Shown piece after piece: positions 26,461 through 64,000 of a DNA stretch of 64,000 nt. This stretch comes from Auanema rhodensis. Its lineage: Eukaryota; Animalia; Nematoda. Position numbers and translations under genes: made by a program. The stretch spans positions 13,268,001-13,332,000 of the forward strand of contig OZ059895.1 of NCBI GenBank assembly GCA_964057225.1. Direction: 5' to 3'. Under the pieces are notes generated by a model, which saw only the letters and a list, made by a program, of their open reading frames with translations, ran no database searches and was not told where the DNA came from. The stretch's first letter is position 1; each line of letters starts with the position of its first letter.

Positions 26461-26462
26461 TT

Positions 26463-36003: not shown

Positions 36004-36012
36004 TGCCGGGAA

Positions 36013-37136: not shown

Positions 37137-37155
37137 TGGAGGTTCCGCCGAGATT
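37137..37155 (+). promoter_or_regulatory. Primer-binding site, tRNA-Gln type
   Basis: TGGAGGTTCCGCCGAGATT directly after the LTR; complement of the tRNA-Gln 3' end. Confidence 0.88.
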
Positions 37156-39623
37156 CGTCTATAACCGACGAATCTCTAAGAACCATATTTCGCTACATAA
37201 ATTTAATTTTGTTGTCTTTCATACATCTAATTAAAGAATTATATTTCGATTATGCTATATGAATTTAATTTGAAATCTTTCTCTTCTTTATTTCATTCAT
37301 TCAAAAAAACTTTATTTTGATTTTGATTCATAAATTAATACTGAAATCTTATATACATTTATTTAAAAAGATATATTTTGAAACAACTTAATTTTGAAAT
37401 TTTATATTCATTCATTTAAAAGAAACATTTCGATTTTTATCCATATTCTAAGATCTTTCATTCATTTTTGAGGAAAAACTTTGTTTATAACTATCATAAA
37501 TTAATTTGAAATTCTTTTATATTTATTCATTCAAAGAAAGGTATTTCGATATTTTTTTTTCTGTCAATCTTTTCTTTTTCTGTTTTTTTAATCAAAATCT
37601 ATTCTATCTCTCATAAAATTTTGTTATAAAGTTTCAAACAATTTTTGAATCAAAAATGAATTAATTTCTTTCATGAATCATCAAAAAATTCATTGTTTTA
37701 TATATATTAAAATTCATTAATTTCTATTCTATCCTTTAAAATGTATTACTCATTTATATATATATATATATTTATGTACAAAACTATTCTATACTAGTAC
37801 TATATTCCTACTATATTCCTACTATATTCCTATTTTATTTTTCTTTTATCTTCTTTTAAATTTTATCTTTTTCCCTCTCTTATTACTATTATTTTTTTTC
37901 TTCTTCCTAATATAACCCAGAAAACAGCCAAATAATTTTGAAATTTTTTATCTGAATCCCGAACCTAAGATTTACAATTTTGCATTTTGATCCTAAAAGT
38001 AGCCCGTGAGAAGCAATACCAGACTGTCTCGAGAACTGAGCGGAGGCAACCACTATTTTTGATATAAGACGTACGCATTCCTGATTTTGAAGATCCCTTT
38101 ACAGAATTAGTCGAGAATGAAAGTGTTAGAGTGGTCTCACCATGAAAAATCAGGGGAGCAGAATTTCGTTAAGGGAGCGATTTCTGTAATTTTTCATAGG
38201 CAAGAGAAGTCTGGGAAAGTGAATGTTCGAGGCCTGAGCACCTAATCTTGTCGAAAGACTGAAAGGGAATACTGCTTAGATCACCGTCGTATATTTCACG
38301 CCTATTCGAGAGATGGGAACTTGATCCTAGAAAGGGCGCACCGGTCACAGGCCCGTGTATGTACCCGATTGAGCAATTCTCCGTTAGAAGATTCGCTGCA
38401 GGCTGGCCCCCTAGCAAGCGTCACGCATACAACCCCATATTGCCTCTCACGTTGTATATATATTTTTATAAGTTTCGCATCGTTGGTATAATAATTTCCT
38501 TTCCAGGAAAACCAACAAGATGACGGACTCGAAGAGTAAAAATCCTCCGCAGGATAAAACAAATCCACAGAGCGCAGCCCCCCGGTAATGATACGCACGT
38601 CGAGCCAGTACTCGAGCAGAATCAAAGAAAGAGAGGACCTCCAAATGTTTATGAGCCGGACACGAAGCGCCGACCTACTGCTGCAAAGAAACCACCCGCT
38701 ATACCGGGTACCCCCGCGAAAAAAAATAGGCACAACAGCTATCAAAACTTCTCGCCACGCTATTACTCTTAGTAAAATTAAAACGTCTATTAACAAACAA
38801 ACTCCTAAACGCAATTCTAACGTTATCAAAAGCTCTAGCTATGTTTGCACAAATACTTCCCCTTGTAAAGATTATTCTCAAATATCATTTTCATACCCAA
38901 ATACTGCTATTCTTTCTTCTCCTCTTCCTCGAAATTCACCAAACTATCAGAGAAAATAGAAGAAAACGCAAGAAAAGAATTGTATGAGGAACGGAAGAAG
39001 GAGCCACCCACAATTAAGAAATGGAGTTCAGCACTTAAATTGGCATTGGGATTAGAAGATAATTCTCCTACAACGCCAGCAAAGCCTTATCATGTGCCGA
39101 TAAGGTATCACAGCACCATACCAGTAACAGAGCCGAAGAAGAGAGTTTCGAAGAGTCCGATCCCGGACCCAAACTTCGTGGCACCAACAGTACCAGTCAT
39201 CCATAAGAAAAGACCGTCAACAGTTATTGGGACTACAAGTAAGAAGCTAGAACAATAGTAAAAATCCATAATTTCTATATAAAAATCACAAAAAGTATAA
39301 TACCATTTTCATAATTTTCATCTAAACTTGAACCTATATATGATTTTTTTTTCTCATTTAAGTAAGACATAAAATTCTACACAAATTATTGTACATTTTT
39401 ATTTTTTCACTCTCATAAAAATATTGTATCAATAACCAAAATTTCAAAATAAAATTATACATCATACTTGGAATCTTTCAAAAATCACTGCAAAGTTTTA
39501 ATCAACAATCTTCATCATTTTTTTTCACCTAACTGGTCAAAAAGGAGGCGACAAAAAGGAAGGAACAGACCGACCTAGTTTTAAAAAGGATAAAAAGGAC
39601 AGAAAACAGTAACAAAGATAACA

Positions 39624-40226
39624 ATGTCCACCCAACTCCCTGAAGCCGTCGAAATTCCCCTCATGATGGCCAAAAAGAGATGGCTTTCAATTCAACTATT
39701 AGTAAGAGAATTGAAGCAGCTAGGCGCCAATACCATCGCCAACCGCCCCAGGAAAGAGAAGATCCTGAAAGAGTTAGTTCAAGGACTAACAAGAGCGAAC
39801 ACCAGTACTGAAACGCTCAAAATCCTATGTTACCAATACGACAAGGATCAACTGTCGGAGGTTGACCACTGCATAGGACCATGGACCAACACAGCAGGAG
39901 TCATCCGAGATGCCATTGCTGAACTAAGGGACCAACTAGGTTATTCACCTAGTTGCGATTCACCAGAACAGCAGACACCAAACTGGATTATTGCTGAGAC
40001 CCATTCGGCCTATCAAGAATGGAGCCTGCAACATTGCAGCGAACTGCCATCCACAGAGGCAAGAAAAAGCATTTTAAATGCTCTACAAATATTTCTGGCA
40101 TCACCAGCAACCACCAAGGAAGAAATGGAAAGAAAAACGGATTTATGCAACAAGACTATGGATCTTCTCCACGACCTAGGATCATCACCATTACCAGAGA
40201 TACACCAGTATTATGAAGAATACTAA
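39624..40226 (+). CDS. 200-aa hypothetical, probably helical protein of the non-autonomous element
   Basis: Clean ATG-to-stop ORF, GC-richer than its flanks, open in all three copies; no recognisable domain. Confidence 0.6.
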   Translation: MSTQLPEAVEIPLMMAKKRWLSIQLLVRELKQLGANTIANRPRKEKILKELVQGLTRANTSTETLKILCYQYDKDQLSEVDHCIGPWTNTAGVIRDAIAELRDQLGYSPSCDSPEQQTPNWIIAETHSAYQEWSLQHCSELPSTEARKSILNALQIFLASPATTKEEMERKTDLCNKTMDLLHDLGSSPLPEIHQYYEEY

Positions 40227-40479
40227 AAAGAACTTTTGAAAGATTCCCAGTATGATATATGATATATTATTTTGTAATTACATTGTTTTCCTTTATTTTT
40301 TTCTCATAAAATTGTTCTGTATTATCAGTATTCTTTTATTTTTTTGAAACATTTCATACAACTTTCACATTTGCATGGAATTTCACTTTCTCGATGTAGC
40401 TGAGGTCAGCTACTTTTTCGATATTAGGCATGTTCCATACGTGTCCTATAAGTAGAGCGATTGACAACGTCGATTGCTT
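40222..40479 (+). repeat. Duplicated pre-LTR segment plus first ~49 nt of LTR (upstream flank of the viral insert)
   Basis: Direct repeat of 44977-45232; truncated LTR begins TGTTCCATACG at 40431. Confidence 0.92.
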
Positions 40480-40524
40480 TTCTCCTTCTACTAGATTGAC
40501 ACTTTATTGTGTCACCTGGTAGTT

Positions 40525-43500
40525 ATGGATGACTGCACGGCCGTTTCGTCTAATAACTTAATTGTTATGGACGACACCGGTTACCGATCTGAAAAATTTC
40601 CAACAGATGATAAATGTATGGGAGACTTTCTTTTATCCGTATCAGCGGATAAAAATTTTGATCCCGTCCTTAAAAATGTAATCCTTAACAACCCAAATAG
40701 TAGTGTTGCAGCAGCTGTTAAAGCCAGTGTATTGGACAACCGTATGAAGTGAATTAATTTTGACTCTTCGGGACGAATTTTGATTAGATTACAACAGATT
40801 TTATCTAGTGAACAATTACAAGACATTCAAAAAAATTTTTCTTGTTTTAGAATTGAGACCAGTAACACCGATGGTGGACCTCATTCACTAGCTCGTGCCT
40901 TACGCACTGTAGCTTTTTACTACATAAGATACCAATTCTTTCGCTCTTTGGAAATGTTCAAGACATTAACACCCAGCGGTAAATACCATGTAGTACAAAA
41001 GGATATAGGATCAAATCCCATGCAGTTTGTTAATAGTGGCTTTTACTCCGTTCACTGTTGCTGTCCAGTTGTGAACACGGCTGACGTTTTTAGACGTAAT
41101 AATTACGTAGCTCAAGCAACTATGATTGTGAATAATTCCTTTGATAGCAATAAAGTTTATCATTGTAAAAAAATACTCTCTATGGATTCTAATTATATTT
41201 GTTCTCAACTTTCCCAGTACTGTAAGATAAAAGCCCCTTTTGTATCCTTTTTACATTCTGTTTATGATCTTTCTCCAGCTGACATTGTTCAGACCTTAGA
41301 TAACTGTGAAGCTATTAGGGCCGTCGGAGTTATATTATTCGACCCCGTTGTTTTAATTAAAAAAAATGGTATGTTACCAGATATTGACGCATCTTTTACC
41401 CGCTATAAACAGTTTGGAGTCGAATATATTAGATTCTCATTTGATAACGATGTTCAATTGTGTTACACTCATCGTTGGGACACTTATATTTTTATCATAA
41501 AAGCTTTTGTTCTAACTTCTACCACCTCTTTATATAGTTATGCGGTGGCTGGGCTATTACAATTTAAGAGTCATTTTTTCTTTGACATTGCAAGGATTGA
41601 CACTTCTATTCCCCGTCATATTAGCGGGCGTACTTTTAAATTGAACTCCGACAAAAAATCCTATATTCGTACATACGATTTTGATGAATCTTCATCTTTT
41701 TTTAAAACCAAAAATAAATTGAAATATGCTTATATCTGTGTATCAACTAGCTTGTTTGAAAACATGTTAAAACATGGTATGACCTTGGGTGAGGGTAAAT
41801 TCACCGTCAAAAATATCCTGTCAATGGGTATTTCTCTTGATAGTCGTGTTGTAGTCAATGGACAAACAATCTCCAGTTCTGACGAACGACATTCTGCTGA
41901 TACTCTCCGAATACTGGCTCATACTGTTTATATGCTAATTTATGTCAGCAATTACAGTTCAACTAAGACTATAAAGGAATTGACGGATGACATTTCTATT
42001 TCTAGATCTTTATCCTTATTTCCCCGGTTCACCCGTTTATTCTCCATGATGAAGTATTCCGACAAGACCGAAAACCTATTGTCCGCCATGTCTAAAGCTC
42101 ATGACAATGACCTTACAGTGTCATCAATGTCAGACCAGACTGTTTGCGACGACACATCTCGGATGAAGGGTTGGCGGGATTGTGTACTGGGCGGGACTCT
42201 TTATGATATAAAGATTTTCCGTAATATCGGTTATATTGATATTGACCGACAGGTTTCCCAACTTGTCCATCGCGAAGTACGGAAGACTATTGACCATCCC
42301 CTATATAAATTGTGGTTGCCTAATGACTTCGAATGTTCATCTGGTGAAGATTCTGATGAGTATTTTGATGCAGAAGAGGGTGTTATTGATACTTCGACGT
42401 CTTTTGAACCGGTATCTGTGTCGGTTTCACATTCCTGCCAAAGTAACGTTGAAATTATCCCCACTCCTGGTGACGGCGACTGTCTTTTTCACGCTTTGAG
42501 ACTTACGGGTGCTACTACCGATAGTCCACCATCAATTCGTGATAAACTTAGCCATGCCCCTAACATCGGTGAGAAGACAAAGAATCTTCTGTTAGCCGGT
42601 ATTAACGATCCCTCTAATGTTGATAATTGGGGAACAGATGAGCATATTGAGTTGTTCAGTGGTCTATACCGTGTTAAGATTTGCTTACACGATACTTCCA
42701 CTGGTCAGTTTCGACTTTATACTCCTCGTACGCTAGCATCTGAACAATTATATCACGTTCATTATACGCCTGGTCATTTTTCTGCTTTGAAAGTTTGTCC
42801 GAACCGTTTGATGGTATTAACATCTGACGATGTGTTCGATTGTAACGACGCTCCTTTGATTGATAAATTCAGAGACATTTATGACAAAACTTTTGAGAAT
42901 GTCTCTAATCGTAAACATAAGCTGATTAAAAACATAATGACTCCTACATCTAATATCGGCACTGGAGGATACATTTGTCGCTCGGCCTTAAAACTGTGCG
43001 AATTACACGCCTTTGGGCTGATCGATTTCTGTTATGTCGATATAATCGACTTATGTTCTAGCCCCGGAGGGTTTTCTGAATATTTATTACATAACTCTAA
43101 CAGTTTTATTCATGCTGTGCCTGGACCTAAATCCATGTTAATATTCGATAACCGTTTAACTCCCTATTGTGACCCTGTAACAAGATCGTCAAATTTGCTT
43201 GATGACGATATTCGAAACTCTATGGTTGAATTAATAAAGAAGAACACCAATGACAGACTACTTATTTTAGCTGACGGAGCCATATCTGAAACAGCTGTTA
43301 ATCCTCTTCTTCGTGCTGACAATAACTATGATCTCATTTATGCTGAAATCTCCACCGCATTCGATCTATTGCATGATAACGGCAAATTGGTTATTAAACT
43401 GTTTTACCCTTATGCTATTAGTACTCAGATTTTATTGCGCCGATTACTTTCGAGATTTGCGAAATTAACGGTTCTTTTCTTGTCTACCTCCACACCTATT

Positions 43501-44994
43501 TCTTGTGAATTTTATGTTTTATGTGAGGGGTATACTAAATCCGAAATTGTAAGATCTGATTTTAACTACACCGGGTTTTTCCGCTCCGTTTGTAACAATT
43601 TTGATATAAAAAGATCGGACGGATTAAATACCTATCTTCAATATAGTAAATATTACGACACTCTTGATAAAAAAATCAAGGATATATCCGGTAAGGACTT
43701 CCCTTTCAATCATTGCGATATTGAACTAGAATCCACATTACGCAAGTACCTAAAACCTCAAAAATTTTTGGGTTTATATGGTGGTGGTCTTGTAAGCTCA
43801 AAACCGTCATGTGATCCAGTCTTAGATCCAGATGTGTGCGAAACAGAGGATGTTATCTCTCGTCATCACGAGTTGTCCCCGTATAATTTAATTTGCGTTG
43901 ATCAGGGAATTGCAAAGCCCTTTATTTATTGGTACTTAAAGAAGAGGGTCGAGACACTTGGTGATTCCGATCTTCTACGTGCTGTTGAGACTTCCAACGA
44001 TGATTTTTATCGTCTGCATAAATACTTCGTCGCGAAAAAGTATACCGACATGGTATTATCTCAAGAAGCTATTAGATATTTTGAGAGATTGGTAAATTTC
44101 TCAATTGAATCCCATATTATTCATCCACCGTTGGATCCTGTTTTCTTATCTTTTGACAGACAATTGGGAATGTCTGGAAATTTAGGTGAAAACTTTTATG
44201 GTAACTGGTTGCGGCGTACTCCACTTACAGAATTGGAAGAGACTAAATTTACTGATGTATTACCAGAAATATCGGTTGTTAAACCAATATTTACGTCGAC
44301 ACCAGATGCTACCCAAGACACTACTTTCACCTTTAATGTAAAAAAAACCAAATTTCTCAAATTTTCGTATTTAAATCTATTTGTTGGTGGCGCCTTTTCC
44401 TATTATTGCTTAAATAACCTCTATAAACGTTCGTATTTTATAGATTCGCATCACAACCAATGTGTTAATTCTTTGTATAACTTATTATCAGTTCATAATG
44501 TATATAACAGTCTCCCTAAATCCATTTGTATGTCTAATATTATTTTTAATAATTTATGTAGAAATTCTGTAAAATATGATTTTATATCCTCTACAGTCGC
44601 ACAACAGGTTCACGTTGATTCAAAATTTAATGCCACCGCAATATTTTCGGGCATTGCAGCCCTGTTAAGATTTTTGACTGCCTTTCGAATTGACTCAACT
44701 GAGGAACTTGTTCCTAATGACTACAACGCCGGTAATACCATTAAAGATAAACACCATCCACACACTATGTTCTCAACAACTCTCTTCAACGGTGTTAGAG
44801 AATATATCGCTACCAAATTGCGTAAGTCTAGGGCTAATGAATCTGACACTTCAGAAAATGTGATCGATGATATCCAAAAAACGTCAGCAACTATCCCAAC
44901 TCCGATTTTAAATAATACTACACCCTTTAATGATGCAATTGAAGAGTATGCCGAATATTTGACATTATATTCTAAGACTAAAAAGGACTTTTGA
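40525..44994 (+). pseudogene. Endogenous viral element: 5' part of a nege/kita/virga-like (Martellivirales) replicase (capping MTase/GTase, OTU protease, FtsJ 2'-O-MTase); in-frame TGA at 40750; truncated before helicase/RdRp; copy 1
   Basis: PHSLARALR, KDIGSN, VHCCCP...DVFRR, LHSVYD, FSF...YTH match the tobamovirus-like MTase; PGDGDCLFHAL...WG...GHFSAL is an OTU motif set; RSALKL, DLCSSPGGF, LADG, VIKLF, SCEFY give the K-D-K-E FtsJ tetrad. ORFs 40507-40752 and 40780-44994 are in the same frame. Confidence 0.93.
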
Positions 44995-45183
44995 AAGATT
45001 CCCAGTATGATATATGATATACTATTTTGTAATTACATTGTTTTCCTTCATTTTTTCTCATAAAATTGTTCTGTATTATCAGTATTCTTTTATTTTTTGA
45101 AACATTTCATACAACTTTCATATTAGCATGGAATTTCACTTTCTCGATGTAGCTGAGGTCAGCTACTTTTTCGATAGTAGGCA

Positions 45184-45590
45184 TGTTCCATACGTGTCCT
45201 ATAAGTAGAGCGATTGACAACGTCAATCGCTTATAAAACGGAACATTATAAAAACAAATAGCTGACGCTACATTTGAGAAACAGGAATTCAATGCAATAA
45301 AGAACGAACACTTTTTCATATTAAGTTTAATCAAAGAAAGCCCAATTCAAGCGGAACCAAGTTCCGCGGACCTGATATAACGACTTTTTATGCTCGTAAG
45401 GAAAACTATATGAGTTTTCCTTACGAGTCCTTTGGGCTGCGACTAGGAATCATTATGTTATTATTGTAATTTGTATACTTTATCATGAATAAACCTTTCT
45501 CTCTATACTCTTTATCATTTATATTTGGAAGAAAAGAAAGTAATTCCATGTGGTTACCCAGCCGGAACCCTGGGGAACCACCATGGAACG
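45184..45590 (+). repeat. 3' LTR, copy 1 (407 bp)
   Basis: Differs from the 5' LTR by a 6-bp deletion and one substitution; followed by TAAC TSD. Confidence 0.94.
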
Positions 45591-45679
45591 TAACGTAGAA
45601 AATTACATAACTAACATGAAATTGGAAAAAAAACAATAACGAGGATAAGTATGTAAATCATTGAATATCAGGTATTTTC

Positions 45680-45798
45680 GCTTACGACCATACCACGTTG
45701 AAAGTACGCCATCCCGTCCGATCTGGCAAGTCAAGCAACGTTGGGCCCGGTTAGTACTTGGATCGGAGACGGCTTGGGAATCCCGGGTGCCGTAAGCT
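45680..45798 (+). rRNA. 5S rRNA: 5S rRNA
   Basis: Same 119-nt gene. Confidence 0.97.
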
Positions 45799-46016
45799 TT
45801 TCAATTTTTTTTAACGATCATACCACGTTGAAAGTACGCAATGCAGCTGATTTTCAATTTTATCTCTTCCGTAACAAATGTTTTTAATTTTCTAGCAGTT
45901 TTACTTAGATAGCTCAACCCAAGGCATCAAAATATCTTCAATCTTATTTCTATATTACAGTTATAAACCAGTAGTTTATGAACCTTCATCTTAACTTTAC
46001 TGTTTGTGTTTACTTT

Positions 46017-46054
46017 ACGGGATGGCGTACTTTCAACGTGGTATGGTCGTAAGC
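46017..46054 (-). pseudogene. Inverted 5S fragment (nt 1-38) at the inversion breakpoint
   Basis: ACGGGATGGCGTAC...GTAAGC is the reverse complement of the 5S 5' end. Confidence 0.92.
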
Positions 46055-46745
46055 GAAAATATCTGATATTCAATGATTTACATACTTATCCTCGTTATTG
46101 TTTTTTTTCCAATTTCATGTTAGTTATGTAATTTTCTACGTTACGTTCCATGGTGGTTCCCCAGGGTTCCGGCTGGGTAACCACATGGAATTACTTTCTT
46201 TTCTTCCAAATATAAATGATTAAGAGTATAGAGAGAAAGGTTTATTCATGATAAAGTATACAAATTACAATAATAAAAGTTACATAATGATTCCTAGTCG
46301 CAGCCCAAAGGACTCGTAAGGAAAACTTATATAGTTTTCCTTACGAGCATAAAAAGTCGTTATATCAGGTCCGCGGAACTTGGTTCCGCTTGAATTGGGC
46401 TTTCTTTGATTAAACTTAATATGAAAAAGTGTTCGTTCTTTATTGCATTGAATTCCTGTTTCTCAAATGTAGCGTCAGCTATTTGTTTTTATAATGTTCC
46501 GTTTTATAAGCGATTGACGTTGTCAATCGCTCTACTTATAGGACACGTATGGAACATGCCTACTATCGAAAAAGTAGCTGACCTCAGCTACATCGAGAAA
46601 GTGAAATTCCATGCTAATATGAAAGTTGTATGAAATGTTTCAAAAAATAAAAGAATACTGATAATACAGAACAATTTTATGAGAAAAAATGAAGGAAAAC
46701 AATGTAATTACAAAATAATATATCATATATCATACTGGGAATCTT

Positions 46746-51513: not shown

Positions 51514-52116
51514 TTAGTATTCTTCATAATACTGGTGTATCTCTGGTAATGGTGATGATCCTAGGTCGTGGAGAAGATCCATAGTCTTGTTGCATAAATC
51601 CGTTTTTCTTTCCATTTCTTCCTTGGTGGTTGCTGGTGATGCCAGAAATATTTGTAGAGCATTTAAAATGCTTTTTCTTCCCTCTGTGGATGGCAGTTCG
51701 CTGCAATGTTGCAGGCTCCATTCTTGATAGGCCGAATGGGTCTCAGCAATAATCCAGTTTGGTGTCTGCTGTTCTGGTGAATCGCAACTAGGTGAATAAC
51801 CTAGTTGGTCCCTTAGTTCAGCAATGGCATCTCGGATGACTCCTGCTGTGTTGGTCCATGGTCCTATGCAGTGGTCAACCTCCGACAGTTGATCCTTGTC
51901 GTATTGGTAACATAGGATTTTGAGCGTTTCAGTACTGGTGTTCGCTCTTGTTAGTCCTTGAACTAACTCTTTCAGGATCTTCTCTTTCCTGGGGCGGTTG
52001 GCGATGGTATTGGCGCCTAGCTGCTTCAATTCTCTTACTAATAGTTGAATTGAAAGCCATCTCTTTTTGGCCATCATGAGGGGAATTTCGACGGCTTCAG
52101 GGAGTTGGGTGGACAT
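51514..52116 (-). CDS. 200-aa hypothetical protein, copy 2
   Basis: One amino-acid difference from copy 1 (TEGRK vs TEARK). Confidence 0.6.
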   Translation of the reverse strand: MSTQLPEAVEIPLMMAKKRWLSIQLLVRELKQLGANTIANRPRKEKILKELVQGLTRANTSTETLKILCYQYDKDQLSEVDHCIGPWTNTAGVIRDAIAELRDQLGYSPSCDSPEQQTPNWIIAETHSAYQEWSLQHCSELPSTEGRKSILNALQIFLASPATTKEEMERKTDLCNKTMDLLHDLGSSPLPEIHQYYEEY

Positions 52117-54645
52117 TGTTATCTTTGTTACTGTTTTCTGTCCTTTTTATCCTTTTTAAAACTAGGTCGGTCTGTTCCTTCCTTTTTGTCGCCTCCTTTT
52201 TGACCAGTTAGGTGAAAAAAAATGATGAAGATTGTTGATTAAAACTTTGCAGTGATTTTTGAAAGATTCCAAGTATGATGTATAATTTTATTTTGAAATT
52301 TTGGTTATTGATACAATATTTTTATGAGAGTGAAAAAATAAAAATGTACAATAATTTGTGTAGAATTTTATGTCTTACTTAAATGAGAAAAAAAAATCAT
52401 ATATAGGTTCAAGTTTAGATGAAAATTATGAAAATGGTATTATACTTTTTGTGATTTTTATATAGAAATTATGGATTTTTACTATTGTTCTAGCTTCTTA
52501 CTTGTAGTCCCAATAACTGTTGACGGTCTTTTCTTATGGATGACTGGTACTGTTGGTGCCACGAAGTTTGGGTCCGGGATCGGACTCTTCGAAACTCTCT
52601 TCTTCGGCTCTGTTACTGGTATGGTGCTGTGATACCTTATCGGCACATGATAAGGCTTTGCTGGCGTTGTAGGAGAATTATCTTCTAATCCCAATGCCAA
52701 TTTAAGTGCTGAACTCCATTTCTTAATTGTGGGTGGCTCCTTCTTCCGTTCCTCATACAATTCTTTTCTTGCGTTTTCTTCTATTTTCTCTGATAGTTTG
52801 GTGAATTTCGAGGAAGAGGAGAAGAAAGAATAGCAGTATTTGGGTATGAAAATGATATTTGAGAATAATCTTTACAAGGGGAAGTATTTGTGCAAACATA
52901 GCTAGAGCTTTTGATAACGTTAGAATTGCGTTTAGGAGTTTGTTTGTTAATAGACGTTTTAATTTTACTAAGAGTAATAGCGTGGCGAGAAGTTTTGATA
53001 GCTGTTGTGCCTATTTTTTTTCGCGGGGGTACCCGGTATAGCGGGTGGTTTCTTTGCAGCAGTAGGTCGGCGCTTCGTGTCCGGCTCATAAACATTTGGA
53101 GGTCCTCTCTTTCTTTGATTCTGCTCGAGTACTGGCTCGACGTGCGTATCATTACCGGGGGGCTGCGCTCTGTGGATTTGTTTTATCCTGCGGAGGATTT
53201 TTACTCTTCGAGTCCGTCATCTTGTTGGTTTTCCTGGAAAGGAAATTATTATACCAACGATGCGAAACTTATAAAAATATATATACAACGTGAGAGGCAA
53301 TATGGGGTTGTATGCGTGACGCTTGCTAGGGGGCCAGCCTGCAGCGAATCTTCTAACGGAGAATTGCTCAATCGGGTACATACACGGGCCTGTGACCGGT
53401 GCGCAATTTCTAGGATCAAGTTCCCATCTCTCGAATAGGCGTGAAATATACGACGGTGATCTAAGCAGTATTCCCTTTCAGTCTTTCGACAAGATTAGGT
53501 GCTCAGGCCTCGAACATTCACTTTCCCAGACTTCTCTTGCCTATGAAAAATTACAGAAATCGCTCCCTTAACGAAATTCTGCTCCCCTGATTTTTCATGG
53601 TGAGACCACTCTAACACTTTCATTCTCGACTAATTCTGTAAAGGGATCTTCAAAATCAGGAATGCGTACGTCTTATATCAAAAATAGTGGTTGCCTCCGC
53701 TCAGTTCTCGAGACAGTCTGGTATTGCTTCTCACGGGCTACTTTTAGGATCAAAATGCAAAATTGTAAATCTTAGGTTCGGGATTCAGATAAAAAATTTC
53801 AAAATTATTTGGCTGTTTTCTGGGTTATATTAGGAAGAAGAAAAAAAATAATAGTAATAAGAGAGGGAAAAAGATAAAATTTAAAAGAAGATAAAAGAAA
53901 AATAAAATAGGAATATAGTAGGAATATAGTAGGAATATAGTATAGTAGGAATGTAGTATAGAATAGTTTTGTACATAAATATATATATATATAAATGAGT
54001 AATACATTTTAAAGGATAGAATAGAAATTAATGAATTTTAATATATATAAAACAATGAATTTTTTGATGATTCATGAAAGAAATTAATTCATTTTTGATT
54101 CAAAAATTGTTTGAAACTTTATAACAAAATTTTATGAGAGATAGAATAGATTTTGATTAAAAAAACAGAAAAAGAAAAGATTGACAGAAAAAAAAATATC
54201 GAAATACCTTTCTTTGAATGAATAAATATAAAAGAATTTCAAATTAATTTATGATAGTTATAAACAAAGTTTTTCCTCAAAAATGAATGAAAGATCTTAG
54301 AATATGGATAAAAATCGAAATGTTTCTTTTAAATGAATGAATATAAAATTTCAAAATTAAGTTGTTTCAAAATATATCTTTTTAAATAAATGTATATAAG
54401 ATTTCAGTATTAATTTATGAATCAAAATCAAAATAAAGTTTTTTTGAATGAATGAAATAAAGAAGAGAAAGATTTCAAATTAAATTCATATAGCATAATC
54501 GAAATATAATTCTTTAATTAGATGTATGAAAGACAACAAAATTAAATTTATGTAGCGAAATATGGTTCTTAGAGATTCGTCGGTTATAGACGAATCTCGG
54601 CATAACGAGGATAAGTATGTAAATCATTGAATATCAGATATTTTC

Positions 54646-54764
54646 GCTTACGACCATACCACGTTGAAAGTACGCCATCCCGTCCGATCTGGCAAGTCAA
54701 GCAACGTTGGGCCCGGTTAGTACTTGGATCGGAGACGGCTTGGGAATCCCGGGTGCCGTAAGCT
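54646..54764 (+). rRNA. 5S rRNA: 5S rRNA
   Basis: Same 119-nt gene, intact. Confidence 0.97.
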
Positions 54765-57700
54765 TTTCAATTTTTTTTAACGATCATACCACGTTGAAAG
54801 TACGCAATGCAGCTGATTTTCAATTTTATCTCTTCCGTAACAAATGTTTTTAATTTTCTAGCAGTTTTACTTAGATAGCTCAACCCAAGGCATCAAAATA
54901 TCTTCAATCTTATTTCTATATTACAGTTATAAACCAGTAGTTTATGAACCTTCATCTTAACTTTACTGTTTCTATCTATTTCCTATTGAAACAAACATTG
55001 TTTTAACACTATACAACTGTGAAACCTTTTTTAATTTATTGTATTTGGAGCTCATAAGATTTGATATCATCGAAGAATTTAGATGTAACTGTTCCATACG
55101 TGTCCTATAAGTAGAGCGATTGACAACGTCAATCGCTTATAAAACGGAACATTATAAAAACAAATAGCTGACGCTACATTTGAGAAACAGGAATTCAATG
55201 CAATAAAGAACAAACACTTTTTCATATTAAGTTTAATCAAAGAAAGCCCAATTCAAGCGGAACCAAGTTCCGCGGACCTGATATAACGACTTTTTATGCT
55301 CGTAAGGAAAACTATATAAGTTTTCCTTACGAGTCCTTTGGGCTGCGACTAGGAATCATTATGTAACTTTTATTATTGTAATTTGTATACTTTATCATGA
55401 ATAAACCTTTCTCTCTATACTCTTTATCATTTATATTTGGAAGAAAAGAAAGTAATTCCATGTGGTTACCCAGCCGGAACCCTGGGGAACCACCATGGAA
55501 CGTGGAGGTTCCGCCGAGATTCGTCTATAACCGACGAATCTCTAAGAACCATATTTCGCTACATAAATTTAATTTTGTTGTCTTTCATACATCTAATTAA
55601 AGAATTATATTTCGATTATGCTATATGAATTTAATTTGAAATCTTTCTCTTCTTTATTTCATTCATTCAAAAAAACTTTATTTTGATTTTGATTCATAAA
55701 TTAATACTGAAATCTTATATACATTTATTTAAAAAGATATATTTTGAAACAACTTAATTTTGAAATTTTATATTCATTCATTTAAAAGAAACATTTCGAT
55801 TTTTATCCATATTCTAAGATCTTTCATTCATTTTTGAGGAAAAACTTTGTTTATAACTATCATAAATTAATTTGAAATTCTTTTATATTTATTCATTCAA
55901 AGAAAGGTATTTCGATATTTTTTTTTCTGTCAATCTTTTCTTTTTCTGTTTTTTTAATCAAAATCTATTCTATCTCTCATAAAATTTTGTTATAAAGTTT
56001 CAAACAATTTTTGAATCAAAAATGAATTAATTTCTTTCATGAATCATCAAAAAATTCATTGTTTTATATATATTAAAATTCATTAATTTCTATTCTATCC
56101 TTTAAAATGTATTACTCATTTATATATATATATTTATGTACAAAACTATTCTATACTAGTACTATATTCCTACTATATTCCTACTATATTCCTATTTTAT
56201 TTTTCTTTTATCTTCTTTTAAATTTTATCTTTTTCCCTCTCTTATTACTATTATTTTTTTTCTTCTTCCTAATATAACCCAGAAAACAGCCAAATAATTT
56301 TGAAATTTTTTATCTGAATCCCGAACCTAAGATTTACAATTTTGCATTTTGATCCTAAAAGTAGCCCGTGAGAAGCAATACCAGACTGTCTCGAGAACTG
56401 AGCGGAGGCAACCACTATTTTTGATATAAGACGTACGCATTCCTGATTTTGAAGATCCCTTTACAGAATTAGTCGAGAATGAAAGTGTTAGAGTGGTCTC
56501 ACCATGAAAAATCAGGGGAGCAGAATTTCGTTAAGGGAGCGATTTCTGTAATTTTTCATAGGCAAGAGAAGTCTGGGAAAGTGAATGTTCGAGGCCTGAG
56601 CACCTAATCTTGTCGAAAGACTGAAAGGGAATACTGCTTAGATCACCGTCGTATATTTCACGCCTATTCGAGAGATGGGAACTTGATCCTAGAAATTGCG
56701 CACCGGTCACAGGCCCGTGTATGTACCCGATTGAGCAATTCTCCGTTAGAAGATTCGCTGCAGGCTGGCCCCCTAGCAAGCGTCACGCATACAACCCCAT
56801 ATTGCCTCTCACGTTGTATATATATTTTTATAAGTTTCGCATCGTTGGTATAATAATTTCCTTTCCAGGAAAACCAACAAGATGACGGACTCGAAGAGTA
56901 AAAATCCTCCGCAGGATAAAACAAATCCACAGAGCGCAGCCCCCCGGTAATGATACGCACGTCGAGCCAGTACTCGAGCAGAATCAAAGAAAGAGAGGAC
57001 CTCCAAATGTTTATGAGCCGGACACGAAGCGCCGACCTACTGCTGCAAAGAAACCACCCGCTATACCGGGTACCCCCGCGAAAAAAAATAGGCACAACAG
57101 CTATCAAAACTTCTCGCCACGCTATTACTCTTAGTAAAATTAAAACGTCTATTAACAAACAAACTCCTAAACGCAATTCTAACGTTATCAAAAGCTCTAG
57201 CTATGTTTGCACAAATACTTCCCCTTGTAAAGATTATTCTCAAATATCATTTTCATACCCAAATACTGCTATTCTTTCTTCTCTTCTTCCTCGAAATTCA
57301 CCAAACTATCAGAGAAAATAGAAGAAAACGCAAGAAAAGAATTGTATGAGGAACGGAAGAAGGAGCCACCCACAATTAAGAAATGGAGTTCAGCACTTAA
57401 ATTGGCATTGGGATTAGAAGATAATTCTCCTACAACGCCAGCAAAGCCTTATCATGTCCCGATAAGGTATCACAGCACCATACCAGTAACAGAGCCGAAG
57501 AAGAGAGTTTCGAAGAGTCCGATCCCGGACCCAAACTTCGTGGCACCAACAGTACCAGTCATCCATAAGAAAAGACCGTCAACAGTTATTGGGACTACAA
57601 GTAAGAAGCTAGAACAATAGTAAAAATCCATAATTTCTATATAAAAATCACAAAAAGTATAATACCATTTTCATAATTTTCATCTAAACTTGAACCTATA

Positions 57701-57985
57701 TATGATTTTTTTTTCTCATTTAAGTAAGACATAAAATTCTACACAAATTATTGTACATTTTTATTTTTTCACTCTCATAAAAATATTGTATCAATAACCA
57801 AAATTTCAAAATAAAATTATACATCATACTTGGAATCTTTCAAAAATCACTGCAAAGTTTTAATCAACAATCTTCATCATTTTTTTTCACCTAACTGGTC
57901 AAAAAGGAGGCGACAAAAAGGAAGGAACAGACCGACCTAGTTTTAAAAAGGATAAAAAGGACAGAAAACAGTAACAAAGATAACA

Positions 57986-58588
57986 ATGTCCACCCAACTC
58001 CCTGAAGCCGTCGAAATTCCCCTCATGATGGCCAAAAAGAGATGGCTTTCAATTCAACTATTAGTAAGAGAATTGAAGCAGCTAGGCGCCAATACCATCG
58101 CCAACCGCCCCAGGAAAGAGAAGATCCTGAAAGAGTTAGTTCAAGGACTAACAAGAGCGAACACCAGTACTGAAACGCTCAAAATCCTATGTTACCAATA
58201 CGACAAGGATCAACTGTCGGAGGTTGACCACTGCATAGGACCATGGACCAACACAGCAGGAGTCATCCGAGATGCCATTGCTGAACTAAGGGACCAACTA
58301 GGTTATTCACCTAGTTGCGATTCACCAGAACAGCAGACACCAAACTGGATTATTGCTGAGACCCATTCGGCCTATCAAGAATGGAGCCTGCAACATTGCA
58401 GCGAACTGCCATCCACAGAGGCAAGAAAAAGCATTTTAAATGCTCTACAAATATTTCTGGCATCACCAGCAACCACCAAGGAAGAAATGGAAAGAAAAAC
58501 GGATTTATGCAACAAGACTATGGATCTTCTCCACGACCTAGGATCATCACCATTACCAGAGATACACCAGTATTATGAAGAATACTAA
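57986..58588 (+). CDS. 200-aa hypothetical protein, copy 3
   Basis: Identical protein to copy 1. Confidence 0.6.
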   Translation: MSTQLPEAVEIPLMMAKKRWLSIQLLVRELKQLGANTIANRPRKEKILKELVQGLTRANTSTETLKILCYQYDKDQLSEVDHCIGPWTNTAGVIRDAIAELRDQLGYSPSCDSPEQQTPNWIIAETHSAYQEWSLQHCSELPSTEARKSILNALQIFLASPATTKEEMERKTDLCNKTMDLLHDLGSSPLPEIHQYYEEY

Positions 58589-58886
58589 AAAGAACTTTTG
58601 AAAGATTCCCAGTATGATATATGATATATTATTTTGTAATTACATTGTTTTCCTTTATTTTTTTCTCATAAAATTGTTCTGTATTATCAGTATTCTTTTA
58701 TTTTTTTGAAACATTTCATACAACTTTCACATTTGCATGGAATTTCACTTTCTCGATGTAGCTGAGGTCAGCTACTTTTTCGATATTAGGCATGTTCCAT
58801 ACGTGTCCTATAAGTAGAGCGATTGACAACGTCGATTGCTTTTCTCCTTCTACTAGATTGACACTTTATTGTGTCACCTGGTAGTT

Positions 58887-61800
58887 ATGGATGACTGCAC
58901 GGCCGTTTCGTCTAATAACTTAATTGTTATGGACGACACCGGTTACCGATCTGAAAAATTTCCAACAGATGATAAATGTATGGGAGACTTTCTTTTATCC
59001 GTATCAGCGGATAAAAATTTTGATCCCGTCCTTAAAAATGTAATCCTTAACAACCCAAATAGTAGTGTTGCAGCAGCTGTTAAAGCCAGTGTATTGGACA
59101 ACCGTATGAAGTGAATTAATTTTGACTCTTCGGGACGAATTTTGATTAGATTACAACAGATTTTATCTAGTGAACAATTACAAGACATTCAAAAAAATTT
59201 TTCTTGTTTTAGAATTGAGACCAGTAACACCGATGGTGGACCTCATTCACTAGCTCGTGCCTTACGCACTGTAGCTTTTTACTACATAAGATACCAATTC
59301 TTTCGCTCTTTGGAAATGTTCAAGACATTAACACCCAGCGGTAAATACCATGTAGTACAAAAGGATATAGGATCAAATCCCATGCAGTTTGTTAATAGTG
59401 GCTTTTACTCCGTTCACTGTTGCTGTCCAGTTGTGAACACGGCTGACGTTTTTAGACGTAATAATTACGTAGCTCAAGCAACTATGATTGTGAATAATTC
59501 CTTTGATAGCAATAAAGTTTATCATTGTAAAAAAATACTCTCTATGGATTCTAATTATATTTGTTCTCAACTTTCCCAGTACTGTAAGATAAAAGCCCCT
59601 TTTGTATCCTTTTTACATTCTGTTTATGATCTTTCTCCAGCTGACATTGTTCAGACCTTAGATAACTGTGAAGCTATTAGGGCCGTCGGAGTTATATTAT
59701 TCGACCCCGTTGTTTTAATTAAAAAAAATGGTATGTTACCAGATATTGACGCATCTTTTACCCGCTATAAACAGTTTGGAGTCGAATATATTAGATTCTC
59801 ATTTGATAACGATGTTCAATTGTGTTACACTCATCGTTGGGACACTTATATTTTTATCATAAAAGCTTTTGTTCTAACTTCTACCACCTCTTTATATAGT
59901 TATGCGGTGGCTGGGCTATTACAATTTAAGAGTCATTTTTTCTTTGACATTGCAAGGATTGACACTTCTATTCCCCGTCATATTAGCGGGCGTACTTTTA
60001 AATTGAACTCCGACAAAAAATCCTATATTCGTACATACGATTTTGATGAATCTTCATCTTTTTTTAAAACCAAAAATAAATTGAAATATGCTTATATCTG
60101 TGTATCAACTAGCTTGTTTGAAAACATGTTAAAACATGGTATGACCTTGGGTGAGGGTAAATTCACCGTCAAAAATATCCTGTCAATGGGTATTTCTCTT
60201 GATAGTCGTGTTGTAGTCAATGGACAAACAATCTCCAGTTCTGACGAACGACATTCTGCTGATACTCTCCGAATACTGGCTCATACTGTTTATATGCTAA
60301 TTTATGTCAGCAATTACAGTTCAACTAAGACTATAAAGGAATTGACGGATGACATTTCTATTTCTAGATCTTTATCCTTATTTCCCCGGTTCACCCGTTT
60401 ATTCTCCATGATGAAGTATTCCGACAAGACCGAAAACCTATTGTCCGCCATGTCTAAAGCTCATGACAATGACCTTACAGTGTCATCAATGTCAGACCAG
60501 ACTGTTTGCGACGACACATCTCGGATGAAGGGTTGGCGGGATTGTGTACTGGGCGGGACTCTTTATGATATAAAGATTTTCCGTAATATCGGTTATATTG
60601 ATATTGACCGACAGGTTTCCCAACTTGTCCATCGCGAAGTACGGAAGACTATTGACCATCCCCTATATAAATTGTGGTTGCCTAATGACTTCGAATGTTC
60701 ATCTGGTGAAGATTCTGATGAGTATTTTGATGCAGAAGAGGGTGTTATTGATACTTCGACGTCTTTTGAACCGGTATCTGTGTCGGTTTCACATTCCTGC
60801 CAAAGTAACGTTGAAATTATCCCCACTCCTGGTGACGGCGACTGTCTTTTTCACGCTTTGAGACTTACGGGTGCTACTACCGATAGTCCACCATCAATTC
60901 GTGATAAACTTAGCCATGCCCCTAACATCGGTGAGAAGACAAAGAATCTTCTGTTAGCCGGTATTAACGATCCCTCTAATGTTGATAATTGGGGAACAGA
61001 TGAGCATATTGAGTTGTTCAGTGGTCTATACCGTGTTAAGATTTGCTTACACGATACTTCCACTGGTCAGTTTCGACTTTATACTCCTCGTACGCTAGCA
61101 TCTGAACAATTATATCACGTTCATTATACGCCTGGTCATTTTTCTGCTTTGAAAGTTTGTCCGAACCGTTTGATGGTATTAACATCTGACGATGTGTTCG
61201 ATTGTAACGACGCTCCTTTGATTGATAAATTCAGAGACATTTATGACAAAACTTTTGAGAATGTCTCTAATCGTAAACATAAGCTGATTAAAAACATAAT
61301 GACTCCTACATCTAATATCGGCACTGGAGGATACATTTGTCGCTCGGCCTTAAAACTGTGCGAATTACACGCCTTTGGGCTGATCGATTTCTGTTATGTC
61401 GATATAATCGACTTATGTTCTAGCCCCGGAGGGTTTTCTGAATATTTATTACATAACTCTAACAGTTTTATTCATGCTGTGCCTGGACCTAAATCCATGT
61501 TAATATTCGATAACCGTTTAACTCCCTATTGTGACCCTGTAACAAGATCGTCAAATTTGCTTGATGACGATATTCGAAACTCTATGGTTGAATTAATAAA
61601 GAAGAACACCAATGACAGACTACTTATTTTAGCTGACGGAGCCATATCTGAAACAGCTGTTAATCCTCTTCTTCGTGCTGACAATAACTATGATCTCATT
61701 TATGCTGAAATCTCCACCGCATTCGATCTATTGCATGATAACGGCAAATTGGTTATTAAACTGTTTTACCCTTATGCTATTAGTACTCAGATTTTATTGC

Positions 61801-63356
61801 GCCGATTACTTTCGAGATTTGCGAAATTAACGGTTCTTTTCTTGTCTACCTCCACACCTATTTCTTGTGAATTTTATGTTTTATGTGAGGGGTATACTAA
61901 ATCCGAAATTGTAAGATCTGATTTTAACTACACCGGGTTTTTCCGCTCCGTTTGTAACAATTTTGATATAAAAAGATCGGACGGATTAAATACCTATCTT
62001 CAATATAGTAAATATTACGACACTCTTGATAAAAAAATCAAGGATATATCCGGTAAGGACTTCCCTTTCAATCATTGCGATATTGAACTAGAATCCACAT
62101 TACGCAAGTACCTAAAACCTCAAAAATTTTTGGGTTTATATGGTGGTGGTCTTGTAAGCTCAAAACCGTCATGTGATCCAGTCTTAGATCCAGATGTGTG
62201 CGAAACAGAGGATGTTATCTCTCGTCATCACGAGTTGTCCCCGTATAATTTAATTTGCGTTGATCAGGGAATTGCAAAGCCCTTTATTTATTGGTACTTA
62301 AAGAAGAGGGTCGAGACACTTGGTGATTCCGATCTTCTACGTGCTGTTGAGACTTCCAACGATGATTTTTATCGTCTGCATAAATACTTCGTCGCGAAAA
62401 AGTATACCGACATGGTATTATCTCAAGAAGCTATTAGATATTTTGAGAGATTGGTAAATTTCTCAATTGAATCCCATATTATTCATCCACCGTTGGATCC
62501 TGTTTTCTTATCTTTTGACAGACAATTGGGAATGTCTGGAAATTTAGGTGAAAACTTTTATGGTAACTGGTTGCGGCGTACTCCACTTACAGAATTGGAA
62601 GAGACTAAATTTACTGATGTATTACCAGAAATATCGGTTGTTAAACCAATATTTACGTCGACACCAGATGCTACCCAAGACACTACTTTCACCTTTAATG
62701 TAAAAAAAACCAAATTTCTCAAATTTTCGTATTTAAATCTATTTGTTGGTGGCGCCTTTTCCTATTATTGCTTAAATAACCTCTATAAACGTTCGTATTT
62801 TATAGATTCGCATCACAACCAATGTGTTAATTCTTTGTATAACTTATTATCAGTTCATAATGTATATAACAGTCTCCCTAAATCCATTTGTATGTCTAAT
62901 ATTATTTTTAATAATTTATGTAGAAATTCTGTAAAATATGATTTTATATCCTCTACAGTCGCACAACAGGTTCACGTTGATTCAAAATTTAATGCCACCG
63001 CAATATTTTCGGGCATTGCAGCCCTGTTAAGATTTTTGACTGCCTTTCGAATTGACTCAACTGAGGAACTTGTTCCTAATGACTACAACGCCGGTAATAC
63101 CATTAAAGATAAACACCATCCACACACTATGTTCTCAACAACTCTCTTCAACGGTGTTAGAGAATATATCGCTACCAAATTGCGTAAGTCTAGGGCTAAT
63201 GAATCTGACACTTCAGAAAATGTGATCGATGATATCCAAAAAACGTCAGCAACTATCCCAACTCCGATTTTAAATGATACTACACCCTTTAATGATGCAA
63301 TTGAAGAGTATGCCGAATATTTGACATTATATTCTAAGACTAAAAAGGTCTTTTGA
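58887..63356 (+). pseudogene. Endogenous viral replicase fragment, copy 3
   Basis: Near-identical to copies 1 and 2 (NDTT vs NNTT); same in-frame stop at 59112. Confidence 0.93.
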
Positions 63357-64000
63357 AAGATTCCCAGTATGATATATGATATATTATTTTGTAATTACAT
63401 TGTTTTCCTTCATTTTTTCTCATAAAATTGTTCTGTATTATCAGTATTCTTTTATTTTTTGAAACATTTCATACAACTTTCATATTAGCATGGAATTTCA
63501 CTTTCTCGATGTAGCTGAGGTCAGCTACTTTTTCGATAGTAGGCATGTTCCATACGTGTCCTATAAGTAGAGCGATTGACAACGTCAATCGCTTATAAAA
63601 CGGAACATTATAAAAACAAATAGCTGACGCTACATTTGAGAAACAGGAATTCAATGCAATAAAGAACGAACACTTTTTCATATTAAGTTTAATCAAAGAA
63701 AGCCCAATTCAAGCGGAACCAAGTTCCGCGGACCTGATATAACGACTTTTTATGCTCGTAAGGAAAACTATATAAGTTTTCCTTACGAGTCCTTTGGGCT
63801 GCGACTAGGAATCATTATGTAACTTTTATTATTGTAATTTGTATACTTTATCATGAATAAACCTTTCTCTCTATACTCTTTATCATTTATATTTGGAAGA
63901 AAAGAAAGTAATTCCATGTGGTTACCCAGCCGGAACCCTGGGGAACCACCATGGAACGTAACGTAGAAAATTACATAACTAACATGAAATTGGAAAAAAA

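What the first reader, a model, noticed from the sequence alone, without database searches (positions are those of the whole stretch)
37147..64000. Direct-inverted-direct triplication creates ~8.5-kb inverted repeats of the viral cassette: candidate heritable antiviral dsRNA/siRNA locus
Seen: 46017-54601 is the reverse complement of ~37147-45717 (loop ~300 bp) and of 55513 onward (loop ~900 bp). Copies 1 and 2 face each other tail to tail, so each 3' LTR points into the other copy's antisense strand. Known: nematode antiviral defence relies on Dicer/DRH-1-dependent siRNAs, and EVE-derived small RNAs suppress cognate viruses in mosquitoes. Inference: read-through or 3'-LTR-driven transcription would yield long dsRNA covering 4.5 kb of the replicase. 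Unequal crossing-over in the 5S array could then amplify this 'immune memory' cassette. Function is not shown by the sequence.
Basis: inference. Interest (0 to 1): 0.85.

Follow-up and report, generated by a model that had tools for sequence, protein, structure and literature searches.

The report
Captured virus fragment, triplicated and inverted
In a worm's 5S ribosomal gene array, a jumping element carrying a 4.5-kb piece of an unnamed RNA virus sits in three copies with the middle one flipped, likely a by-product of DNA repair that could, if transcribed, make antiviral double-stranded RNA, which is untested.

Summary
The structure is confirmed: 46017-54601 is the reverse complement of 37147-45717 (99.66%) and of 55513-64000 (99.77%), with loops of 299 and 911 bp. 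The repeated unit is a non-autonomous LTR element in a nematode 5S spacer. It holds the first 4.5 kb of a nege-like virus replicase (no helicase, no RdRp; one early stop) between two copies of a 250-bp carrier segment, the footprint of a double template switch. Public DNA contigs bridge the 3' virus-carrier junction in 4 of 4 runs. The copies carry private substitutions but identical homopolymers, and one inversion junction has a flank-templated 11-nt insert, so the inversion is probably real; no read data confirm it. Copies 2 and 3 share two derived changes, so this took two events, not one, and unequal crossing-over cannot invert. The antiviral hairpin reading is geometrically possible but untested: 47% of each arm is carrier or 5S sequence, a 3'-LTR transcript alone gives antisense rather than double-stranded viral RNA, and no near-identical virus was found. 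Precedents exist separately (a retrotransposon-captured nodavirus in Bursaphelenchus; inverted-repeat viral siRNA loci in tomato). New variant of a known kind; interest 0.5.

The parts
36724..37136 (+). Copy 1, 5' LTR (413 bp) of a non-autonomous LTR element; 4-bp target duplication at 36720-36723 and 45591-45594
   Evidence: sequence
37137..37155 (+). Primer-binding site; first 10 letters identical to that of the intact Gypsy element in the window; which tRNA it matches was not tested
37156..40221 (+). Carrier internal region: AT-rich, short frames of 129-210 codons, no gag/pol match
40222..40471 (+). First copy of a ~250-bp carrier segment (end of internal region, purine-tract position, first 48 bp of the LTR) that is repeated after the viral insert
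40472..44976 (+). Copy 1 viral insert: 53-nt leader, start codon 40525, in-frame stop 40750-40752, then open frame with capping methyltransferase-like, OTU-like and FtsJ regions; ends before the helicase
44977..45224 (+). Second copy of the carrier segment; begins with a 9-nt microhomology at the virus-carrier junction
   Evidence: junction bridged by contigs in 4 of 4 runs
45184..45590 (+). Copy 1, 3' LTR (407 bp); private 6-bp deletion and private change in a TATA-like box (45412)
45591..46005 (+). 5S unit between copies 1 and 2, with an intact 5S gene at 45680-45798; cut at unit position 326
46006..46016 (.). Junction 1: 11-nt insert that can be tiled from the last 20 nt of the left flank
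   Evidence: 0.24% of 200,000 random 11-mers do so
46017..54601 (-). Copy 2, inverted: 5S positions 1-38 plus spacer (46017-46143), 3' LTR (46144-46556), viral insert (46764-51268), carrier internal region, cut inside the primer-binding site; no 5' LTR
54602..55089 (+). Junction 2 (blunt, at 54601/54602) and 5S unit with intact 5S gene 54646-54764
55090..63958 (+). Copy 3, complete: 5' LTR 55090-55502, viral insert 58834-63338, 3' LTR 63546-63958; same target site in the 5S spacer as copy 1
26131..36342 (+). Context: BEL/Pao element inserted in the 5S gene just upstream of copy 1 only; identical LTRs
3962..15427 (+). Context: intact Ty3/Gypsy element with LTR ends, primer-site start and target-duplication length like the carrier's; likely type of helper element

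Best explanation
This is a virus-carrying non-autonomous LTR element present three times in a nematode 5S array, likely captured by a double template switch during reverse transcription and likely inverted later by error-prone break repair, with no selected antiviral role shown. Step 1 (inferred from junctions): a Gypsy-type reverse transcriptase copying carrier RNA jumped at a 9-nt microhomology onto a nege-like viral plus-strand RNA, copied 4.5 kb towards its 5' end, and jumped back into the start of a carrier LTR, duplicating ~250 bp. Step 2 (shown): the chimera sits in the 5S spacer with a 4-bp target duplication. Step 3 (inferred): DNA-level duplication in the array gave copy 1 and the copy 2/3 lineage. 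Step 4 (inferred): a break 415 bp past copy 1 was joined, polymerase-theta style, to an inverted copy of the copy 3 lineage that lost its 5' LTR. Likely consequence if transcribed (untested): antisense or hairpin RNA that feeds small RNAs against the carrier family, the cassette itself and, only if a near-identical virus still circulates, that virus.
For: Insert flanked by a direct repeat of carrier sequence with 9-nt microhomology at the 3' junction and an imperfect match at the 5' junction. 3' virus-carrier junction bridged by contigs in 4 of 4 DNA runs from 3 studies; at the 5' junction all 4 reach 30 letters into the carrier, one short of the tool's bridging rule. Same target site in all 3 copies, against 28 empty sites in the window. 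Each copy has private changes while 15 of 15 homopolymers of 7 or more letters have equal length. Copies 2 and 3 share two changes (38334-5 and 44987) where the runs' contigs or the internal duplicate show copy 1's state, and one run (X7) has a 95-bp contig identical to copy 2 across the second site. Junction 1 insert tiles from its flank, 0.24% by chance, matching the templated insertions of polymerase theta joining in C. elegans (PMC4032859, passages). Viral contigs are much shallower (9-40) than carrier contigs (mostly 160-3000) in the same runs, suggesting a large virus-free family, though depth is no copy number.
Against: The inversion rests on one assembly; no whole genome or raw long reads were available. 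The spacer base 8 bp upstream of the 5S gene differs between the downstream flanks of copies 1 and 2 at a site that is polymorphic in the array (17 G, 13 A of 30), which needs conversion or crossing-over under a DNA-duplication model and fits separate insertions equally well. The two copies of the 250-bp segment differ by 5 substitutions and 2 one-base indels in all copies, far more than the LTR pairs, so capture may predate the present insertion; stop-codon counts do not separate the two readings. Three copies with a nearly intact 4.5-kb frame are what selection would also produce. Junction 2 has no microhomology or insert.
Confidence: 0.55

Rival explanations
1. Heritable antiviral hairpin locus: read-through from copy 1 into copy 2, or convergent LTR transcription, makes long double-stranded RNA over the replicase; Dicer products protect against the cognate virus, and the array amplified the cassette under selection.
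For: 8571-bp arms at 99.66% with a 299-bp loop, 4505 bp viral; promoters at both ends; copy 2's 3' LTR keeps all three TATA-like boxes. Young insert (1 stop, no frameshift in 1484 codons), so the virus may still circulate. Precedent in plants: a few inverted-repeat pararetroviral loci give much of the viral siRNA in tomato (PMC9868043, passages); EVE-derived piRNAs in Aedes (PMC6797480, passages).
Against: Needs 1.3-5.8 kb of read-through past copy 1's poly(A) hexamer, across a 5S gene and further hexamers at 46272 and 46646 (hexamers alone are weak evidence). A 3'-LTR transcript folds back only over LTR/5S sequence. Copy 1's 3' LTR lost a TATA-like box. C. elegans edits hairpin transcripts and thereby avoids an RNAi response, and makes antisense 22G RNAs from LTR elements that lack inverted repeats (PMC7084138, passages), so the inversion may be neither needed nor effective. 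Closest database relative is 68% identical over 117 residues, too distant for RNAi by established knowledge.
Confidence: 0.12
2. The cassette is real but the inverted middle copy, or the triplication, is an assembly or library chimera.
For: Long inverted repeats with short loops inside a tandem array are a known form of long-read and amplification chimeras (recalled). Fold-back contigs at low depth occur at this 5S sequence in public runs (joints at 46056/46057 to 54642/54645 in X4).
Against: Copy 2 has 5 private changes (4 substitutions, one 10-bp repeat gain) against both other copies, so it is not a fold-back of either; homopolymers are identical; junction 1 has a flank-templated insert rather than a microhomology; the allele shared by copies 2 and 3 exists in an independent run.
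Confidence: 0.13
3. The virus-carrying element is itself mobile: it was retrotransposed in trans more than once into the same base of different 5S spacers, and one copy was later inverted.
For: It keeps LTRs, primer site and purine-tract position, with ends like an intact Gypsy that also targets this spacer about 40 bp away; flank allele differs between copies 1 and 2; the internal 250-bp duplicates are more diverged than the LTR pairs.
Against: Helper-type Gypsy and carrier use different bases of the spacer, so base-exact targeting is not shown; 0 of 4 LTR variants is shared by both LTRs of one copy, as separate insertions from diverged sources could give (weak); the duplicated unit includes the 5S flanks.
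Confidence: 0.12
4. Mu killer-like locus: the hairpin matters mainly as a silencer of the abundant carrier retrotransposon family, the viral part being a passenger.
For: 3940 bp of each arm is carrier sequence including LTR; carrier contigs are far deeper than viral ones; Mu killer is a partial inverted duplication proposed to give a ~4-kb hairpin by read-through (PMC3440606, search listing with start of abstract).
Against: No expression data; the arms also hold 5S positions 1-38, so a hairpin would yield RNAs against 5S rRNA, a possible cost (inference).
Confidence: 0.08

Closest known systems
eBxnv-1 of Bursaphelenchus xylophilus (Cotton et al. 2016, PMC5177903; parts 1-2 of 4 of the text read)
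   Same: Positive-strand RNA virus replicase sequence inside a non-functional LTR element in a nematode; copy-choice recombination proposed; present in some strains only.
   Different: There a nodavirus RdRp in a BEL/Pao element, single copy, expressed at low level. Here a nege-like N-terminal replicase in a Gypsy-like non-autonomous carrier, with the template-switch duplication still visible, in a 5S array, three copies, one inverted; expression unknown.
Inverted-repeat pararetroviral siRNA loci (TSAs) of tomato (Valli et al. 2022, PMC9868043; passages)
   Same: Endogenised viral sequence rearranged into kilobase inverted repeats, proposed as heritable RNA-based immunity.
   Different: Plant, DNA pararetroviruses, siRNA output measured; here an animal, a non-retroviral RNA virus, no RNA data.
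LTR retrotransposon-virus recombinants and EVE piRNAs of Aedes aegypti (Tassetto et al. 2019, PMC6797480; passages)
   Same: Viral RNA recombined with LTR elements during reverse transcription and integrated.
   Different: Acts through antisense piRNAs from piRNA clusters, needs no inverted repeat; junctions there reported as sequence-independent, here a 9-nt microhomology.
Mu killer of maize (PMC3440606; search listing only)
   Same: Partial inverted duplication of a mobile element that could give a long hairpin by read-through.
   Different: DNA transposon target, plant, silencing demonstrated.
DUP-TRP/INV-DUP and ODIRA triplications (recalled, no paper read)
   Same: Direct-inverted-direct order with short spacers.
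   Different: Those arise in one event at inverted repeats or microhomologies; here junctions are a templated insert and a blunt join, and copies 2 and 3 are closer to each other than to copy 1.
Nege-like viruses, Martellivirales (Drosophila River Almond nege-like virus, Loreto virus, Solenopsis invicta virus 17)
   Same: Methyltransferase, OTU-like and FtsJ regions in the same order, 25-31% identity.
   Different: The insert is a long-branch lineage whose only close row is an unnamed 196-residue fragment, P0024; helicase and RdRp are absent.

Membership tests
Retrotransposon-captured non-retroviral EVE (eBxnv-1 type) | Homology to a non-retroviral RNA virus protein | tested here: met
   454 proteins at E<=0.001; top hits are 2300-2600-residue replicases with helicase and RdRP_2 domains
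Retrotransposon-captured non-retroviral EVE (eBxnv-1 type) | Lies inside an LTR element with LTR pair, primer site and target duplication | tested here: met
Retrotransposon-captured non-retroviral EVE (eBxnv-1 type) | Virus-element junction present in independent genomic DNA | tested here: met
   3' junction bridged in 4 of 4 runs; 5' junction reached with 30 letters in 4 of 4, one short of the bridging rule
Retrotransposon-captured non-retroviral EVE (eBxnv-1 type) | Transcribed | not testable with these tools
   only contig sets were served
Inverted-repeat siRNA locus (tomato TSA, Mu killer) | Long near-perfect inverted repeat of target sequence | tested here: met
   8571-bp arms, 99.66%, 299-bp loop
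Inverted-repeat siRNA locus (tomato TSA, Mu killer) | A transcript running through both arms | not testable with these tools
   no stranded or long RNA reads available; sequence signals only
Inverted-repeat siRNA locus (tomato TSA, Mu killer) | Small RNAs from the arms and silencing of a target in trans | not testable with these tools
   no small-RNA data
Inverted-repeat siRNA locus (tomato TSA, Mu killer) | A near-identical circulating target virus | tested here: inconclusive
   best identity 68% over 117 residues, others 31% or less over long stretches; databases are incomplete
Single-event DUP-TRP/INV-DUP or ODIRA triplication | Direct-inverted-direct order | tested here: met
Single-event DUP-TRP/INV-DUP or ODIRA triplication | Junctions at inverted repeats or microhomology | tested here: not met
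   11-nt insert at junction 1, 0-bp homology at junction 2
Single-event DUP-TRP/INV-DUP or ODIRA triplication | All three copies from one template at one time | tested here: not met
   copies 2 and 3 share two derived changes; low counts, conversion not excluded
Nege-like viruses (Martellivirales) | Viral methyltransferase followed by FtsJ methyltransferase | tested here: met
   FtsJ 59 bits; alignment over the Vmethyltransf region of P0001, P0004, P0005; the insert itself did not reach Pfam Vmethyltransf at E 0.01
Nege-like viruses (Martellivirales) | Placement by RdRp tree; structural genes | not testable with these tools
   helicase, RdRp and structural genes are not in the window; N-terminal quick tree only

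The most novel reading that the evidence does not exclude
A natural hairpin 'vaccine' locus in an animal: a retrotransposon captured the front half of an RNA virus replicase, parked it in the 5S array, and a later inversion turned it into an 8.5-kb double-stranded RNA source that gives nematodes DNA-encoded, amplifiable RNAi immunity to that virus, polymorphic between strains.
Probability: 0.12. Interest if true: 0.85.

Novelty: new variant of a known kind. Interest (0 to 1): 0.5.

Why it matters
Whether nematodes store heritable antiviral memory in DNA, as Aedes does with piRNA-producing EVEs, is open. This locus offers a young insert, a visible capture mechanism, three copies in two orientations and a hint of presence/absence variation among samples, so small-RNA output can be compared across no copy, direct copy and inverted copy. 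Even if it is neutral, it records a retroelement capturing a virus with both template switches legible, and reveals an unnamed nege-like virus lineage that reached a nematode germ line. My searches listed no report of a nege-like EVE or an inverted-repeat EVE in a nematode; the library lacks most subscription papers and I read no supplements.

Tried and rejected
Junction 1 in public data: laid 45936-46085 on 4 of 14 listed runs (X1, X4, X5, X9). The insert 46011-46015 had no cover in any of the 4 and no contig bridged it; loose ends showed only the normal 5S continuations. In one search (X1, X4, X7, X9) no listed contig bridged junction 1 or 2, with 2834 pieces not shown. These are short-read contigs that drop rare paths between very deep repeats and may come from other strains, so this gives no verdict either way. 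Copy number from contig depth: ratios of carrier to viral depth ranged from about 15 to over 100 between runs; rejected as a copy count. No whole genome held. Homolog search at near length found nothing for the viral frame; viral-contig scan 0 of 8 candidates confirmed. Carrier frames: no Pfam match for 4 of 4 short frames, no atlas hit for the 200-residue frame. No spliced-leader motif (recalled motifs) in the 5S unit; no tRNA gene. Tree: careful search unfinished, quick tree only, 45 of 150 hits used, first 440 residues. Stop-codon dating cannot separate 0.05% from 1% divergence. Earlier scan notes: nothing by place or sequence, one unrelated note by words. Rejected: single-event triplication; unequal crossing-over as the cause of the inversion; fold-back of copy 1 or 3 as the source of copy 2.
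Full report
Observation. The structure is as described. Self-BLAST gives 37147-45717 against the reverse complement of 46017-54601 at 99.66%, 46102-54601 against 55513-64000 reversed at 99.77%, and 36343-45632 against 54709-64000 direct at 99.80%. The loops are 299 and 911 bp, and each holds an intact 5S gene. The window is a 529-bp 5S array (30 Rfam hits, all on +) with three kinds of LTR insert. The host is likely a rhabditid nematode: the best named relatives of the Gypsy polymerase are from Heterorhabditis, Auanema and Caenorhabditis. The species was not determined.

The repeated unit. It is an LTR element of 8.9 kb (36724-45590) with 413-bp LTRs, a primer-binding site and a 4-bp target duplication, but no gag or pol match. 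Its LTR ends, the first 10 letters of its primer site and its target-duplication length match the intact Gypsy at 3962-15427, which sits about 40 bp away in the same spacer; I infer a non-autonomous partner of that kind of element. All 3 copies occupy the same base of the spacer; 28 such sites in the window are empty.

The viral insert. 40472-44976 has a 53-nt leader, a start codon at 40525, an in-frame stop at codon 76 in all 3 copies, and then an open frame to the end. The stop region is identical in the contigs of X1, X4, X7 and X9. The frame matches FtsJ and 454 proteins at E<=0.001, the best being replicases of 2300-2600 residues at 25-31% identity that carry methyltransferase, FtsJ, helicase and RdRP_2 domains and, where named, are mostly nege-like viruses. 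No helicase or RdRp part is in the window. An OTU-like stretch is visible by alignment with P0001 and a weak structure-bank hit. In a quick tree of the first 440 residues with 45 of 150 hits the insert groups firmly only with P0024, an unnamed 196-residue fragment, 68% identical over 117 residues and also matching the piece before the stop. Nematode-associated Martellivirales, one with an FtsJ domain, are in print (PMC12770441, passages; PMC11445058, passages); I did not compare sequences with them.

Capture. The insert lies between two copies of a ~250-bp carrier segment (40222-40471, 44977-45224) that runs into the LTR start. The 3' junction has a 9-nt microhomology and the 5' junction an imperfect match to the LTR continuation. 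This is what two template switches during minus-strand synthesis would leave (inference; copy choice is proposed in PMC5177903, parts 1-2 of 4, and PMC6797480, passages). The two segments differ by 5 substitutions and 2 one-base indels, more than the LTR pairs (0-2 changes): either two family RNAs were used, which is plausible since the family's main LTR contig differs at 7 of 403 letters, or capture predates this insertion. The chimera is real DNA: 9 of 14 listed runs, from 3 studies, hold half or more of the words, and contigs bridge the 3' junction in 4 of 4 runs laid and reach 30 letters past the 5' junction. Viral contigs have depth 9-40 against mostly 160-3000 for carrier contigs, which suggests many virus-free relatives but is no copy count.

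Is the inversion real? Probably (about 85%), on internal evidence. Copy 1 has private changes at 45022, 45412 and a 6-bp deletion; copy 2 at 46221, 47180, 48434, 51680 and a 10-bp repeat gain; copy 3 at 55212, 57284, 57458, 63276 (polarised). Yet 15 of 15 long homopolymers agree in length, so these are unlikely to be consensus errors, and copy 2 is not a fold-back of either neighbour. Junction 1 carries an 11-nt insert tiled from the last 20 nt of its left flank (0.24% of random 11-mers), like polymerase theta joins in C. elegans (PMC4032859, passages); junction 2 is blunt. Public contigs gave no verdict on either junction (see Tried and rejected).

Order of events. Copies 2 and 3 share changes at 38334-5 and 44987. 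The runs show copy 1's state at the first site; at the second, X7 has a contig identical to copy 2, while X1, X4 and X9 carry one extra unlisted difference that I assign to this site by contig ends (inference). So the tree is (1,(2,3)), with small counts and conversion not excluded. A BEL element with identical LTRs breaks the 5S gene upstream of copy 1 only. The simplest history is an older direct duplication, then an inverted copy of the copy 3 lineage joined in by break repair, losing its 5' LTR. Unequal crossing-over can explain the direct copies and any later amplification, not the inversion. Separate insertions at one target base remain possible because a flank allele differs between copies 1 and 2 at an array-polymorphic site.

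Function. An arm is 52.6% viral, 46% carrier, 1.5% 5S unit. A full hairpin needs read-through of 1.3-5.8 kb past copy 1's poly(A) hexamer at 45488, across a 5S gene and hexamers at 46272 and 46646; hexamers also occur in the sense path, so this is weak. A transcript from a 3' LTR would be antisense to the virus and fold back only over LTR and 5S sequence; it could still pair in trans with sense RNA or viral RNA (inference). Copy 1's 3' LTR is the only one of 5 lacking the TATA-like box at LTR position 224 (promoter role inferred). In C. elegans, hairpin transcripts are ADAR-edited, preventing an RNAi response, and LTR elements yield 22G RNAs without inverted repeats (PMC7084138, passages). No near-identical virus was found. 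Against my reading: the insert is young, the geometry is ideal, and tomato uses such loci (PMC9868043, passages).

Verdict. Observation confirmed; interpretation partly supported and untested. Best reading: a captured viral fragment amplified and inverted as a by-product of array turnover and break repair, with latent silencing potential (0.55). Rivals: artefact 0.13, selected antiviral hairpin 0.12, mobile virus-carrying element 0.12, transposon-killer locus 0.08. New variant of a known kind; interest 0.5, 0.85 if the antiviral function holds. DUP-TRP/INV-DUP and ODIRA are recalled, not read. No supplements were read; lists of nematode EVEs there could bear on novelty.

Noticed in passing
window 3962-15427 (frame 5646-14393): Intact Ty3/Gypsy element with one 2915-codon frame in which a herpes gB / Monjiviricetes-type fusion protein lies between gag and protease, an unusual place for env; an Auanema protein (P0154) carries the same domain set; LTRs identical.
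   Followed up: partly
window 26131-36342: BEL/Pao element with phlebovirus G2-type envelope, identical LTRs and a 5-bp target duplication, inserted inside a 5S gene at position 68.
   Followed up: partly
window 1-64000: Three different LTR families sit in one 5S array, two of them about 40 bp apart just upstream of the 5S gene, hinting at Pol III-gene targeting; my search listed no nematode report of it.
   Followed up: partly
window 49994-50585 (copy 2 coordinates): Extra contig depth in runs X1 and X4, not X7 or X9, and a contig break at 50448-50475: possibly a second, short fragment of the same virus elsewhere in those genomes.
   Followed up: no
runs X10, X11: Word shares of 0.35 and 0.24 against 0.78 for X9 of the same study; 0.35 is what loss of the viral half would give, hinting at presence/absence variation.
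   Followed up: no
protein P0024 (1004-bp Logan contig): Only close relative of the insert (68% over 117 residues), open across the position of the stop; a related virus or another endogenous copy.
   Followed up: partly
window 5S units, e.g. 15478-26063: The 529-bp unit has a second partial copy of the 5S 5' end just after the terminator, no match to recalled spliced-leader motifs, and higher-order repeats of variant units (18125 and 19713).
   Followed up: no
window 53639/53640 (copy 2 coordinates): Carrier-family contigs in X1 and X9 have 32 extra letters here, so the virus-carrying element has a deletion relative to the main family.
   Followed up: no
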